This document shows positions 12,201 through 15,200 of a DNA stretch of 47,704 nt, piece after piece. The stretch spans positions 1-47,704 of the IMG/VR virus record IMGVR_UViG_2537562189_000012. One strand, written 5' to 3'. Source of the DNA: a virus (lineage: Duplodnaviria > Heunggongvirae > Uroviricota > Caudoviricetes). How positions within the stretch are numbered: position 1 is the first letter of the stretch; each line of letters starts with the position of its first letter. The position numbers were made by a program.

Positions 12201-15200
12201 TGTCTTCTGTGATAGGGGTGGCTACCGGGTAGAAACCAGCCAGTGCGATAACGTCGCTGAACTCCAGATCATCCAGTGTCATTGCCGCTGACATGTTTTC
12301 AGCTTCAGTTGCTGTATCCCGACATTCCTGCACTCGTGAAATCGTGTCAGGATGCATAACAATACCTGATGCCATTGTGCGGATAAGACGTTCAAGCAGC
12401 GCATTATGTTGTGCCAGAAGTTGATTATTAAGTTCGAGACTGGTTTCTAAACTCATACTGTGGTCCTCGCTACAAGGAGAATGAAAGTGATGATCAGACC
12501 GAGCGCAGTGGCAACGGCCAGACCGGTCATCAAATCGAAGTTTTTACGGCGATAACGGAGAACATCGCGCCCCGTCAGTCGATAGAGGTGTTCAGGTTTC
12601 ATTGGTTGTATTCCTTTTTTCATATCGGGGAGCACGCTGTTGCGAGTGCGCTTTCAGACATAAAAAAACCCGTCACTTGAGGCGGGCAAAGACTACACAC
12701 AGCAATTACATGGATATCATCGAGTGCCTGCTTTTAACCACATCAGGCGAGGTGGTTCTCCTTGTACCCCTACAGCGAGAATTCGGCTAATATCTCTTTA
12801 CCCCTATAGTTTTAGAGAGAATTAAGATGTCTGAAGAAAAAGGACTTGTACGGCGTATAACTGAGGCGGCCACTAGTGCTGGTGGTGCTTTGAAAGGTGC
12901 TGTTGATTTAGCAAAAGAAGTTAATGCGTTGCAGGTGGATTACAATGTTAAAAGTAAAACTATCGATCTACTTGATAAACTAATTGATGCGCGTACTGGA
13001 CAATTCGCACTAACGGAGCTTTTGAACGAAGCTAAACAGCGCATTGTTGAACTCGAATCCCTTCTGGAAAAGAAACAGGATTGGGATAGTGAGAAAATGA
13101 ACTATGAAATGTACCACCCAATTACCAATACGGTGGTCTATGTACTGAAGCCTACTGACGATCCTGAGTTCAAGCCTCATTATCTTTGTACTACATGCTA
13201 TGAGTCGGGTATGAAGTCTATACTTCAATACCATACTTCTAATGCCGCTTATAAAATTCTCAAGTGTCATAAATGCTCCGCTGAATATAAATTTCCCCGA
13301 AATATAGAAGTCAGTGGCAAAATTCCTGCACCGTTACAACCTGCCAGATGATTAGCAGTTCTCTTTGGTGGTGGTGTAGTGGTAGATGCTGAACTTCGGA
13401 TTGACTCAATGGACTGATCTTCACCCCACCCCAAAAGGAACTAAGCGCCCCATCGTCGGGGCGTTTCAACTTGCGTGACTTATCAGTTTGTCGCGGTGTT
13501 GTCCTCTACGCTTACCGTACGCATACGGACTCGGCGCTTACCTCGATCCCATCGGGTGCTATTTCGTTTTGCCAGGAGTACTGCGGCTTACCTGTCACGC
13601 GGTTCAGTTTGTTAAAGAGCGATTACTTATCGCGATCAAAAATACAAGCAAACCTGTAAATGTGTCAACAGGTGTTTTGGTAATAAAACGCATTATTAAC
13701 CTAATTACTTGTTTTTACAGGTAATAAAAAAGAGGGCCTAAGCCCTCTTTGTTTAGTAGTCAGGATGCGATTATCTTTTTCTGCGGAATATGCGATGTTC
13801 TACCATTGTCCCTATGATCTTAATTGGTTTTTCCCAGGAGCGACAAATAGGGTAATCAGTATTCAAGGGAACAAGTTCAAAGTCTTCCTCACCCTTAGCG
13901 CCAATCCCTACCGGGCGGTATTTTTTGAACGTTGCTTCGTGGCTACCGTTACATGCCGCAACGAATTCACCAGGAGTAGGGTATACGTCAGTGTCAATTA
14001 TAACGATGTCCCCCTCTTTAAATTCAGGTTCCATTGAATCCCCACGTATACGTAGCGCAAATGAACTTTCTGATAGCTCAGCCGTGGTGAGAATGTATTC
14101 GAAATCACCTTCTTCACGAAGTAGCTCAGCGCTTGTGAAAGCCCCTGCTTGTACGTAGCTTAGAACAGGCACCCTTCGGGCTCCGTAGTTGAAATCTGTA
14201 ACAACATCGCCCCCAAGAAGTAGCCATTTAGGATCGCATTCAAGAGCTGACGCTAAAGCAAGAAGATTGCGTGGTTTAAGTGTTTTCCCATTCTCTATAG
14301 CTTCAATCGACTGCTGGCTAATGCCCGCTCGTTTCGCAACTTCGACCTGAGTTAAGTTTAGTTCTGTTCTGCGTTTTTTAGCTCGGTTGGCAAGATTCAT
14401 GTTGACTCCTTTTCTGTCATTGATGATTACAGATACTTCTGTATTTGACAAACAAGGTTGCCTGTGAGGTAATTACAAGTAAACCTGTAATGATGAGGGC
14501 TTACTCAATGACCAGTTCCACCCTTGCTTCACGTATAAAGGAGCGCCGCAAAGCCTTAGGTATAACCCAAACTTCATTGGCTGAAAGTGTTGGCATGCGC
14601 CAGCAGTCTGTTCAATACCTTGAGTCCGGACGCGCCACCCGTACCGGTTTCATCCTTGAATTGGCAAAAGTTCTGAAATGCGATCCTGACTGGCTATTAA
14701 ACGGCGAAAATTCAGAGCAGCAAAAGGTGTAACCCATGTCTGATAACAAACCATGGGGAGCTACGCCCGATGAGTGGTTCCACTTTGATCTGGTGTTGGG
14801 GATGACAGACAGGCTTTTACCTGTGGTGTCCAATCCCTGTGCAGAACTGTCGCCTAATAGCAAGCTGTCTCATAATTTCGGCAAAACACCCAGTCGCTAC
14901 AATGGCCAACGTAAGGTTGTTGGTATCCCCGACTGGGCTAACTATGTTGTTACGGAAAACGATTTTGCCCGGTGGTCGAACGAACCCGATTACGGTATTT
15001 GCGTTCGTACTGGCGACGGGGTGGTGGCTCTGGACTGCGATATCAATGATGCCGGGATGCAGGAGATTGTACGCAATATTATCCTGTCATGCCTGGGGGA
15101 ACTTCCGCCACGTCGCTGGCGGGCTGACAGTCATAAATGCCTGTACCTGATTGCTGTTGATGGCGACTACCGTAAACGTGGTCACCGCCTGGAAGGCGAA

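What the first reader, a model, noticed from the sequence alone, without database searches (positions are those of the whole stretch)
12624..13470. Single-gene moron next to cI encoding a coiled-coil / zinc-ribbon protein: candidate exclusion or defence gene
The 174-aa product (12827..13351) has a helical N-terminal half and CTTC...CHKC pairs, lies in an AT-rich island, is transcribed opposite to both cI and the leftward replication operon, and has its own terminator. The slot beside the repressor gene in lambdoid prophages often holds lysogen-expressed exclusion genes (for example rexAB). I recognise no family for this protein.
Basis: inference. Interest (0 to 1): 0.5.

Follow-up and report, generated by a model that had tools for sequence, protein, structure and literature searches.

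The report
Prophage Rip1 pore-forming anti-phage gene
The gene is a clear relative of Rip1, a prophage defence protein described in 2026 that punches holes in the cell membrane when it meets ring-shaped assembly proteins of an invading phage. It is therefore a new member of a known family, not a new kind of system.

Summary
The ORF at 12827..13351 (+), 174 aa, is real. It is AT-rich (40.6% GC against 52.2% for the window) and runs opposite to its neighbours.

It belongs to the Rip1 ("ring interacting pore 1") family. It is 48% identical over 160 aa to phage HK446 Rip1 (PDB 9oox; E 8e-45). An AlphaFold model matches that structure and nothing else in the PDB (TM 0.82). The four cysteines are invariant in a 10-sequence alignment that includes the Pseudomonas homologue D3112 orf25.

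Their nearest analogy, rexAB, is not the best one. The gene occupies the sieB slot, antisense inside the leftward early transcript.

Its roughly 105-bp upstream region is homologous to the P22 and lambda sieB promoter and to the region antisense to P22 sas RNA. In 119 viral contigs this same module precedes SieB (55), Rip1 (28) or small unknown ORFs.

Within that module, two stems that could form a pseudoknot show compensatory base changes.

I infer that Rip1 is made in the lysogen and switched off by antisense transcription when the prophage itself turns lytic.

Novelty: new member of a known kind.

The parts
12827..13351 (+). Rip1-family ORF, 174 aa including stop. Predicted N-terminal amphipathic helix at residues 2-34, a long helix at 39-90, and a beta-rich Cys4 domain at 93-157.
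   Evidence: ORF list. phmmer against PDB 9oox_L Rip1, E 8.4e-45. BLASTP 48% identity over 160 aa to HK446_037. AF2 model pLDDT 81. Foldseek 9oox_M E 2e-11, TMt 0.82. phrog_1244 E 2e-43.
12830..12928 (+). Codons for the N-terminal Gly/Ala/Ser-rich amphipathic helix (residues 2-34), the presumed membrane-inserting pore element.
   Evidence: DSSP helix 2-34. The highest hydrophobic moment in the protein is 0.49, in the 18-residue window starting at residue 5, and there is no classical TM segment. The role is inferred from the Rip1 description in PMC13434031.
13187..13276 (+). Two Cys pairs: C121-x2-C124 (13187-13198) and C147-x2-C150 (13265-13276).
   Evidence: Read from the sequence. All four are invariant in the 10-sequence alignment that includes Pseudomonas D3112 orf25. 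In the 82-sequence alignment three are invariant and one is nearly so.
12763..12793 (+). sieB-type promoter: -35 TGTACC (12763-12768), 19-nt spacer, -10 TAATAT (12788-12793). The inferred transcription start is about 12800, giving a 27-nt leader with an SD-like GAGAG at about 12814-12819.
   Evidence: Aligns column for column with the promoter (29690-29720) and RNA start site (29727) annotated for sieB in P22 record BK000583. The -10 position keeps TANNNT in most of the 62 aligned leaders. The generic sigma-70 scan missed it.
12709..12831 (-). Region equivalent to the P22 sas antisense RNA, antisense to the Rip1 translation start, leader and promoter. The ends are mapped by homology and are approximate.
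   Evidence: The P22 sas sequence (PMC13397905, Table 2) aligns with the minus strand here, 89% over 56 nt. The blocks are conserved in HK446, lambda, P22 and Pantoea although the cargo proteins differ.
12726..12757 (-). Two interleaved conserved stems that could form an H-type pseudoknot: S1 GCCTG (12726-30) with CAGGC (12744-48), and S2 AACCAC (12736-41) with GTGGTT (12752-57).
   Evidence: Both stems show compensatory variants: 4 sequence versions of S1 and at least 6 of S2. 34 of 41 unique leaders satisfy a constrained pseudoknot, against 7 of 1025 shuffles. The element lies upstream of the mRNA start, so any RNA role must be on the minus strand. The loop lengths (0-3 nt and 5-10 nt) also fit that strand (inference).
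12766..12809 (.). Direct repeat ACCCCTACAG (12766-12775) and ACCCCTATAG (12800-12809), flanking the -10 box. Function unknown.
   Evidence: the repeat finder D15. The first copy is invariant across the 62 leaders, which were selected by that motif. The second copy is conserved in most of them.
12662..12686 (-). Hairpin followed by seven U's on the minus strand. It is a terminator-like element between the sas-like region and the first gene of the leftward operon (12635..12453).
   Evidence: Read from the sequence. The fold is -7.7 to -8.1 kcal/mol, no better than shuffles. The element is conserved in phage 611R5 but not in HK446 or Pantoea.
13443..13466 (+). 3' hairpin of the Rip1 transcription unit: 9 bp, 6-nt loop, with only the three U's at the 3' end of the stem as a T-run.
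   Evidence: RNA fold: hairpin centroid -14.6 kcal/mol; 56-nt MFE -17.8, z -2.3. It lies in a block 98% identical to phage 611R5. The terminator scan did not call it.
13609..13668 (-). PL-like leftward early promoter (TTGACA-18-TATTTT, 13668..13639) overlapped by an operator-like 20-mer (13640-13659), followed by an rrn-type boxA GCTCTTTAACAA (13620..13609).
   Evidence: Promoter scan, 10 of 12 matches. The 20-mer is 90% identical to one at 14471-14490 in the cI/cro intergenic region. The boxA is the only match in the window, with 0.17 expected by chance.
13771..14451 (-). cI-type repressor (HTH_3 plus Peptidase_S24). This is context, not part of the Rip1 unit.
   Evidence: Pfam E 6e-18 and 1e-14; phrog_4.

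Best explanation
The ORF encodes a Rip1-family protein, a single-protein abortive-infection defence that is both sensor and effector.

**Mechanism, by analogy with HK446 and Pseudomonas Rip1.** The protein is made in the lysogen and is harmless alone. When a superinfecting phage reaches late gene expression, its ring-shaped small terminase or portal oligomer acts as a template. The Cys4 C-terminal domains of about 12 Rip1 monomers dock around the ring. The N-terminal amphipathic helices are brought together into a membrane pore. The cell is permeabilised before progeny mature.

**Expression.** The gene is driven by a sieB-type promoter (-10 at 12788-12793, start about 12800).

**Inferred off-switch.** The unit lies antisense inside the cI-repressed leftward early transcript. 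De-repression of PL, on induction of this prophage or infection by a hetero-immune relative, would send transcription through the gene. That would generate a sas-like antisense RNA covering the Rip1 ribosome-binding site and shut off new Rip1 synthesis.

**Shown here:** family membership by sequence and fold, conserved residues, homology of the promoter/sas module, and the gene layout.

**Inferred, not shown:** expression in the lysogen, the trigger, pore formation, and antisense control.
For: **Sequence**
- phmmer against the PDB finds only 9oox 'ring interacting pore 1 (Rip1)': E 8.4e-45, query residues 3-159. With the family profile the E-value is 1.8e-50.
- The aligned residues 3-160 of the 9oox chain are identical to HK446_037.
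- BLASTP gives 48% identity over 160 aa.
- The Pseudomonas homologue D3112 orf25 lies between the small and large terminase genes, the location described for the founding Rip1. It is 29% identical, E 1e-20.

**Fold**
- The AF2 model has pLDDT 81.
- Foldseek against the PDB gives 9oox_M (E 2e-11, TMt 0.82, rmsd 2.4 A) and 9oox_L. The next hit has E 0.8.

**Conserved features**
- Four invariant Cys plus W86, Y93 and Y105.
- The N-terminal helix has the protein's highest hydrophobic moment.

**Context**
- The gene is a lone, counter-oriented gene in prophages in four arrangements. These are this window and phage 611R5; between N and the rest of the PL operon in HK446 and a Pantoea prophage; between TerS and TerL in D3112 and a Chromobacterium prophage; and beside cI in an Edwardsiella prophage.
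- The family is large: 4439 cluster representatives at E<=1e-3.

**Regulation**
- The upstream 105 bp is homologous to the annotated P22 sieB promoter and start site, and to the lambda sieB upstream region.
- It is also homologous to the published P22 sas RNA.
- A PL-like promoter with operator-like repeats and a boxA sits upstream in the leftward direction.

**Mechanism of Rip1:** taken from the review of Patel et al. 2026 (PMC13434031) and from PMC13601566.
Against: - No experiment exists for this allele. At 48% identity the trigger specificity could differ, or the function could have drifted.
- The primary paper (Nature 651:1060) is not in the library, so mechanistic details come second-hand from a review.
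- The N-terminal 40 residues are modelled with only moderate confidence (pLDDT 61-69).
- The antisense off-switch is extrapolated from P22 sieB. There sas works together with Esc, an in-frame internal product. I found no conserved internal start in Rip1: M90 and M94 are not conserved, and HK446 M23 is K in this protein.
- The hairpin plus U7 at 12686..12662 and the 3' hairpin could limit leftward read-through unless boxA-dependent antitermination operates. That is untested.
Confidence: 0.8

Rival explanations
1. The protein has the Rip1 fold but serves the prophage's own life cycle. For example, it might bind the resident small terminase (24422..24898) or portal (27227..28729) to time lysis or packaging, rather than defend against other phages.
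For: Rip1 proteins bind terminase and portal rings. In D3112-type phages the gene sits between the phage's own terminase genes. The window encodes its own TerS (phrog_141) and a lambda-family portal.
Against: The gene is counter-oriented to the lytic operons in every context seen, and it carries the promoter of a lysogen-expressed exclusion gene. In near-identical phage backbones the ORF body is swapped for a 44.5%-identical allele, which is typical of accessory cargo and not of a core function. Deletion and expression analyses in Pseudomonas showed a defence phenotype (review).
Confidence: 0.06
2. It is a superinfection-exclusion factor that works like SieB, or by some other non-pore route, and shares only the expression cassette with SieB. 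The Rip1-like fold would then be used differently in this clade.
For: It has the same promoter/sas module and the same slot as sieB. This allele is only 48% identical to the characterised Rip1.
Against: There is no sequence similarity to SieB (PF14163 does not hit) and no transmembrane segment of the kind SieB has. Homology to Rip1 is full-length, and all family-invariant residues are kept.
Confidence: 0.07
3. It is a small zinc-ribbon nucleic-acid-binding regulator of the immunity region, or a decaying, non-functional remnant.
For: Two CxxC pairs. There are weak sub-threshold hits to zinc-binding families: DM domain E 0.13, ECs_2282 CxxC E 0.18.
Against: Those hits are far below the curated cut-offs. 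The only significant structural match is Rip1. The ORF is intact and at least 99% identical in 27 complete E. coli genomes. Homologues are conserved across Enterobacterales and beyond.
Confidence: 0.03

Closest known systems
Rip1 (ring interacting pore 1) of Escherichia phage HK446, PDB 9oox, and the Pseudomonas aeruginosa prophage Rip1 (Patel, McCarthy, Taylor et al., Nature 651:1060, 2026)
   Same: Full-length homology: 48% identity to HK446 Rip1 and 29% to the D3112-type protein. It shares the predicted fold, the four invariant Cys, the N-terminal amphipathic helix, and the layout as a single counter-oriented prophage gene. It also shares HK446 rip1's sieB-type upstream module.
   Different: It belongs to a different clade: 174 aa with a 15-residue C-terminal tail, grouping with Citrobacter, Edwardsiella and Tatumella homologues. 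The host phage is also different: a Prim-Pol/DNA pol A replicon with a DUF1441 TerS, with no N homologue found, and with an rrn-type boxA downstream of the PL-like promoter. Trigger range is unknown.
SieB / Esc / sas superinfection-exclusion module of phages P22 and lambda
   Same: It has the same genomic logic: a rightward unit embedded antisense in the leftward early operon. The promoter, start site and antisense (sas) region are homologous. Both are abortive-type exclusion genes expressed from the prophage (literature).
   Different: The proteins are unrelated. SieB is a PF14163 membrane protein and Rip1 is soluble with a Cys4 domain. No Esc-like internal product is evident in Rip1.
RexAB of phage lambda
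   Same: It is a prophage-encoded abortive-infection system in the immunity region that acts by depolarising or permeabilising the membrane (established knowledge).
   Different: RexAB is a two-protein system co-transcribed with cI from PRM. Here there is a single protein with its own promoter, separated from cI by cI's terminator and by a PL-like promoter with operator-like repeats, and with no sequence similarity.

Membership tests
Rip1 (ring interacting pore 1) | Significant full-length sequence homology to an experimentally characterised Rip1 | tested here: met
   9oox_L E 8.4e-45, covering query residues 3-159 of 174. BLASTP 48% identity, E 1e-54. Family profile against the PDB, E 1.8e-50.
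Rip1 (ring interacting pore 1) | Rip1 fold: long N-terminal helices plus a compact C-terminal beta-rich domain | tested here: met
   AF2 model pLDDT 81. Foldseek 9oox_M prob 1.00, TMt 0.82, rmsd 2.4 A over 121 columns, with no other PDB fold below E 0.7.
Rip1 (ring interacting pore 1) | N-terminal amphipathic helix, the pore-forming element | tested here: met
   Helix 2-34 in the model. The maximal hydrophobic moment is 0.49 at residues 5-22, a pattern similar to HK446 Rip1, and there is no TM segment. Model confidence there is only 61-69.
Rip1 (ring interacting pore 1) | Conserved C-terminal ring-contacting domain with family-invariant residues | tested here: met
   C121, C124, C147, C150, W86, Y93, Y105, K108, K130 and Q134 are invariant across enterobacterial and Pseudomonas members. 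Which residues contact the ring could not be checked without the coordinates or the paper.
Rip1 (ring interacting pore 1) | Single-gene system carried by prophages | tested here: met
   Lone counter-oriented ORF in a prophage with integrase, cI/cro, terminase and portal. Homologues have the same layout.
Rip1 (ring interacting pore 1) | Activation by oligomeric phage small terminase or portal rings, assembly of a roughly 12-mer, and membrane permeabilisation with an abortive outcome | not testable with these tools
   Known for HK446 and Pseudomonas Rip1 only through the review. It needs phage challenge, co-expression and reconstitution.
Rip1 (ring interacting pore 1) | Constitutive expression from the prophage; non-toxic alone | not testable with these tools
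   Indirect evidence only. The promoter is homologous to the annotated P22 sieB promoter and start site. The allele is stably carried in 27 of 5426 complete E. coli genomes.
SieB (PF14163) | Match to the SieB Pfam model and an N-terminal membrane-spanning region | tested here: not met
   No PF14163 hit at E<=1. The maximum Kyte-Doolittle 18-mer average is 0.61. Only the regulatory module is shared.
sieB-type promoter / sas antisense module | Sequence homology to the annotated P22 sieB promoter and start site and to the published sas RNA | tested here: met
   blastn hits to P22, lambda and HK620, 79-86% over 75-93% of a 113-nt query. Alignments A3 and A5. sas is 89% identical over 56 nt.
sieB-type promoter / sas antisense module | An antisense RNA is actually produced and represses translation of the cargo | not testable with these tools
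   Requires RNA-seq or northern blots after induction, plus mutational tests.
RprA sRNA (RF00034) | Score at or above the Rfam gathering threshold | tested here: not met
   44.4 bits against a gathering score of 70, at 12771..12658 (-). Not filed as RprA.

The most novel reading that the evidence does not exclude
The roughly 105-bp sieB-type promoter/sas module may be a portable 'expression-plus-self-immunity' platform. It would express abortive-infection cargo in lysogens and silence it through a pseudoknotted antisense RNA when the carrier phage turns lytic. Rip1, at least three SieB subfamilies and several uncharacterised small ORFs are interchangeable cargo behind it. The uncharacterised ORFs include a 93-aa family (phrog_8894), a 61-aa family (phrog_27767), a 71-aa family (phrog_25023) and a 92-aa family, with no Pfam or PADLOC hit for the ones scanned. 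If this is right, the module marks new defence genes and explains how Rip1-carrying lambdoid prophages avoid killing themselves.
Probability: 0.4. Interest if true: 0.55.

Novelty: new member of a known kind. Interest (0 to 1): 0.3.

Why it matters
**The gene.** It can now be annotated. RefSeq currently calls it 'hypothetical protein' in strains including IAI1, ETEC H10407 and O103:H2 12009. It adds a divergent Rip1 allele, probably with its own trigger range. That bears on phage-therapy host range and on how prophages shape phage susceptibility in E. coli.

**The regulatory observation.** This is the part that may add knowledge. Rip1 in enterobacterial prophages uses the decades-old sieB/sas control module. 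That suggests a concrete mechanism for self-tolerance. It also gives a cheap sequence handle, the conserved leader, for finding further lysogen-expressed defence genes.

Tried and rejected
- **Family libraries.** Pfam, NCBIfam and PADLOC scans of the protein gave only sub-threshold noise: a CCDC22 coiled coil, the DM domain and PDC-M27A.
- **Promoter and terminator scan.** The generic sigma-70 scan found no plus-strand promoter or terminator for the gene. The promoter was recognised only by homology to P22 sieB; it has a non-canonical -35 and a 19-nt spacer.
- **Rfam.** At gathering thresholds nothing was found in the region. The permissive scan gave an RprA hit at 44 bits against 70 on the minus strand. 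I treat this as a by-product of the hairpins and U-tract, not as RprA.
- **Pseudoknot search.** An unconstrained search did not separate real leaders from shuffles (11.5 against 10.1 bp). Only the position-constrained search with compensatory variants was informative.
- **MFE folding.** Folding the 284-nt leftward leader and the sas-like region gave z-scores of -0.6 and -0.2, so there is no support from energy alone.
- **Esc-like internal start.** None in Rip1 is conserved.
- **N-like ORF.** I looked between the PL-like promoter and the gene and found none.
- **Primary paper.** The Rip1 paper could not be retrieved by DOI or PMID.
- **Literature searches.** Searches combining sieB with sas or Rip1 were swamped by unrelated matches.
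Full report
**1. The observation**

The ORF 12827..13351 (+) exists as described: ATG start, 174 aa. It has CTTC at residues 121-124 and CHKC at 147-150.

It is compositionally foreign. The ORF is 40.6% GC, with GC3 33%, against 52.2% for the window. Only 2.6% of same-size windows are as AT-rich.

It is transcribed opposite to the cI-type repressor at 13771..14451 (HTH_3 plus Peptidase_S24). It is also opposite to the leftward operon that starts at 12635. That operon holds phrog_11981 and phrog_6784 proteins, a DUF2800/PD-(D/E)XK nuclease, an Enc34-type SSB and a DNA polymerase A.

The window is an E. coli prophage. It has an integrase, cI/cro, a Prim-Pol/D5-like primase, a DUF1441 small terminase, a gpA-type large terminase and a lambda-family portal.

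Two details need correcting:
- **The 'terminator'.** It is a 9-bp hairpin at 13443-13466 whose only T-run is the three U's at the 3' end of the stem. The consensus scan did not call it.
- **Distance from cI.** The gene is about 420 bp from cI, not adjacent. The stretch between them holds cI's terminator (13729-13750), a strong leftward promoter-like site (13668..13639) and operator-like repeats.

**2. What the protein is**

Curated family libraries are silent: Pfam, NCBIfam and PADLOC give nothing significant. PHROGs places the protein in phrog_1244, of unknown function (E 2e-43).

A sequence search of the PDB gives one significant hit. It is 9oox, 'ring interacting pore 1 (Rip1)', at E 8.4e-45 across residues 3-159. 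Foldseek identifies that entry as the cryo-EM structure of phage HK446 Rip1 bound to the phage T6 small terminase, released in February 2026.

The aligned residues 3-160 of the 9oox chain are identical to HK446_037. The window protein is 48% identical to HK446_037 over 160 residues.

I built an 82-sequence alignment of homologues and predicted the structure. The model has pLDDT 81, with helices at 2-34 and 39-90 followed by a beta-rich domain at 93-157. It matches 9oox_M with TM 0.82 (normalised to the target) and rmsd 2.4 A. Nothing else in the PDB scores below E 0.7.

The four cysteines, W86, Y93, Y105 and several other residues are invariant from E. coli to the Pseudomonas phage D3112 homologue. 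The N-terminal Gly/Ala/Ser-rich helix carries the largest hydrophobic moment in the protein, and no segment is hydrophobic enough to be a classical transmembrane helix. HK446 Rip1 shows the same pattern.

**3. What Rip1 does (from the literature)**

The primary paper is Patel, McCarthy, Taylor et al., Nature 651:1060 (2026). It is not in the library, so I rely on a review's summary (PMC13434031):
- Rip1 is a prophage protein of P. aeruginosa, encoded between the small and large terminase genes.
- It is not toxic alone.
- Escape mutations map to the portal in Pseudomonas phages and to the small terminase in E. coli phages.
- Twelve Rip1 monomers assemble around an 11-mer small-terminase ring.
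- The N-terminal amphipathic helices form a pore, and the C-terminal half contacts the ring.
- The complexes release dye from liposomes and make holes in cells, so the infected cell is lysed prematurely.

PMC13601566 also lists Rip1 among sensors of the small terminase subunit.

The Pseudomonas homologues I found sit exactly in that position. They are D3112 orf25 and the corresponding genes of DMS3, JBD30 and MP38, on the opposite strand between the terminase genes. A Chromobacterium Mu-like prophage has the same arrangement.

**4. Distribution and cassette behaviour**

A profile search of 1.84 billion cluster representatives finds 4439 relatives at E<=1e-3 and 743 at E<=1e-30. This particular allele occurs, at 99% identity or more and in single copy, in 27 of 5426 complete E. 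coli genomes. All copies are chromosomal and all are annotated 'hypothetical protein'. The genomes include IAI1, ETEC H10407 and O103:H2 12009.

Closer relatives at 65-90% identity come from Citrobacter, Edwardsiella and Tatumella.

Phage vB_EcoM-611R5 shares the flanks at 97-98% identity: 12000-12864, which includes the first 12 codons, and 13434-13620. Its ORF body, however, is a different Rip1 allele, only 44.5% identical at the protein level. The coding body therefore behaves as exchangeable cargo between fixed regulatory ends.

**5. The upstream region is the sieB promoter/sas module**

I aligned the 200 bp upstream of the gene with the upstream regions of the HK446, Pantoea and 611R5 homologues. 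About 105 bp (12722-12826) is far better conserved than the proteins, which are 45-57% identical. The conserved blocks are separated by indels, so the region is non-coding.

The ORF that follows the pattern in those contigs is:

| Downstream ORF | Contigs |
|---|---|
| SieB family (PF14163; one cluster of 40 holding P22-type and further subtypes, and one of 15 lambda-type) | 55 |
| Rip1 family | 28 |
| Small ORFs of unknown function and cases where no convincing ORF was found | 36 |

The recurring unknown families are 93 aa (7 contigs), 61 aa (5), 92 aa (4) and 71 aa (3). Three of them match PHROGs of unknown function. The 93-, 61-, 71- and 92-aa families have no Pfam hit, and the 93-, 61- and 71-aa families have no PADLOC hit; the 92-aa family was not scanned against PADLOC.

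blastn of the block against annotated phage genomes hits lambda directly upstream of the sieB position. It also hits P22 over the features annotated 'sieB promoter' and 'sieB RNA start site'.

Column-for-column alignment transfers the P22 annotation to the window:
- -35 TGTACC at 12763-12768
- -10 TAATAT at 12788-12793, with a 19-nt spacer
- transcription start near 12800
- a 27-nt leader with an SD-like GAGAG

The -10 position keeps TANNNT in most of the 62 distinct leaders, and is a perfect TATAAT in some.

The published P22 sas antisense RNA aligns with the minus strand of this block at 89% identity over 56 nt. Mapping its ends by homology gives about 12831..12709 in the window.

According to reviews, sas pairs with the sieB mRNA and switches translation from SieB to its inhibitor Esc. 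This lets P22 escape its own exclusion. P22 also annotates esc as an internal in-frame CDS.

**6. A conserved structured element**

The part of the block upstream of the promoter contains two interleaved complementary pairs:
- S1: GCCTG (12726-30) with CAGGC (12744-48)
- S2: AACCAC (12736-41) with GTGGTT (12752-57)

Leaders retrieved with a different anchor show double-sided compensatory changes in both:
- S1 also occurs as GCCCGG/CCGGGC, GCCGGG/CCCGGC and ACCCGG/CCGGGT.
- S2 also occurs as ACCACC/GGTGGT, ACTACC/GGTAGT, CCACG/CGTGG, TCACG/CGTGA and AACCTCA/TGAGGTT.

34 of 41 unique leaders satisfy a constrained H-type pseudoknot: both stems at least 5 bp and at most one G-U. Only 7 of 1025 shuffles do.

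The element lies upstream of the mRNA start, so any RNA-level function must belong to the leftward (sas) transcript. The loop lengths point the same way. A 0-3-nt loop would have to cross the 5-7-bp stem S1 and a 5-10-nt loop the 5-7-bp stem S2, which suits an H-type knot read on the minus strand. That last point is my inference.

Two mutually exclusive hairpins, rather than a knot, are not excluded.

**7. Layout and inferred regulation**

A leftward promoter-like site lies at 13668..13639 (TTGACA-18-TATTTT) and overlaps a 20-mer at 13640-13659. That 20-mer is 90% identical to one in the cI/cro intergenic region (14471-14490). Related sites occur at 13705-13718 and 14427-14446. This looks like the leftward operator and promoter pair (OL/PL) of a lambda-type immunity region.

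About 15 nt downstream of the expected start is a perfect rrn-type boxA, GCTCTTTAACAA (13620..13609). It is the only match in the window.

No plausible leftward ORF lies between this promoter and the Rip1 gene. The leftward early transcript should therefore run antisense through the Rip1 unit and the sas-like region, pass a weak hairpin-U7 (12686..12662), and enter the replication/recombination operon. In HK446 and in a Pantoea prophage the Rip1 gene is likewise embedded antisense, beside N.

I therefore infer two states:
- **In the lysogen**, cI silences PL and Rip1 is made from the sieB-type promoter.
- **On de-repression**, convergent transcription and a sas-like RNA covering the ribosome-binding site stop new Rip1 synthesis.

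None of this is shown experimentally. There is no conserved Esc-like internal start in Rip1.

The sieB-type leader is absent from the Mu-like loci (D3112, Chromobacterium) and from the Edwardsiella locus. It is a feature of the PL-slot cassettes, not of the Rip1 family as a whole.

**8. Comparison with known systems, and verdict**

The protein passes every membership test for Rip1 that can be run in silico: sequence, fold, invariant residues, amphipathic N-terminus, and single-gene prophage context. The functional criteria could not be tested: ring activation, dodecamer pore, abortive phenotype and expression in the lysogen.

It is not a SieB protein, although it shares SieB's slot and control region. 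It is not analogous to rexAB in gene organisation.

That condition was clear homology to a structural or housekeeping phage protein.

Rip1 and its wide distribution in prophages were published in 2026, so this is a new member of a known kind and deserves modest interest. The part that may be new is the shared sieB/sas module with its covarying structured element and its unknown cargo genes. I could not check it against the primary paper.

Noticed in passing
window 12722-12826; loci L008-L176: The conserved sieB-type promoter/sas leader precedes interchangeable cargo in 119 viral contigs: SieB family 55, Rip1 28, and several small ORFs of unknown function. The unknown ones include 93 aa (phrog_8894, 7 contigs), 61 aa (phrog_27767, 5), 92 aa (4) and 71 aa (phrog_25023, 3). 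The 93-, 61-, 71- and 92-aa families have no Pfam hit, and the first three have no PADLOC hit; the 92-aa family was not scanned against PADLOC. These are candidate new lysogen-expressed exclusion genes.
   Followed up: partly
window 12726-12757 (minus-strand RNA): Two interleaved stems show multiple double-sided compensatory variants across leaders. 34 of 41 unique leaders fit a constrained pseudoknot, against 7 of 1025 shuffles. The stems lie in the 3' part of the sas-equivalent RNA and could form an H-type pseudoknot. I do not know whether this has been described.
   Followed up: partly
window 13609-13724: A PL-like promoter (13668..13639, -) has operator-like 20-mers related to those between cI and cro. 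It is followed by a perfect rrn-type boxA GCTCTTTAACAA (13620..13609). There is no N-like ORF downstream. This suggests host-factor or otherwise unconventional antitermination of the leftward operon.
   Followed up: partly
window 13471-13620: This non-coding block is 98% identical to phage 611R5 and contains a repeat, CTCTACGCTTACC / CTCGGCGCTTACC (repeat finder D9), plus a third similar GGTAAGC-containing site read by eye on the minus strand at about 13591..13585 (not returned by the repeat search). MFE folding gave no signal (z -0.6). Function unknown.
   Followed up: no
window 12658-12771 (-): A sub-threshold Rfam hit to RprA sRNA (44 bits against a gathering score of 70, full model length) spans the stem region and the hairpin-U7 at 12686..12662. 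It may reflect a terminated sas-like sRNA of about 170 nt in this phage. I did not accept it as RprA.
   Followed up: partly
window 12865-13433 compared with L003 (phage vB_EcoM-611R5): Two phages with 97-98% identical flanks carry Rip1 alleles only 44.5% identical. The breakpoints are at codon 13 and just upstream of the 3' hairpin, so the allele was replaced within a fixed regulatory frame.
   Followed up: yes
L004 928-5525 (Edwardsiella ictaluri prophage): Here the Rip1 homologue (76% identical) follows a 510-aa gene on the same strand with a faint ORC/CDC6-like ATPase hit. It lies near an HTH-Peptidase_M78 gene, beside cI. This may be a small defence cluster in the immunity region.
   Followed up: no
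window 19710-19921 (+) and 18219-18295 (+): There is an Rfam STnc100 sRNA (151 bits, above the gathering score) and a tRNA-Arg(TCT) gene, both downstream of the replication genes of the prophage.
   Followed up: no
window 11033-11551 (-): A 172-aa ORF inside the leftward operon carries a motif of the kind seen in HNH endonucleases (...EVDHINGRRDDNRAVNLRW...), read by eye only. The Pantoea prophage has an HNH_3/AP2 gene in a comparable position (L007 2178-2666). It is probably a homing-type endonuclease insertion. I did not scan it against any family library.
   Followed up: no
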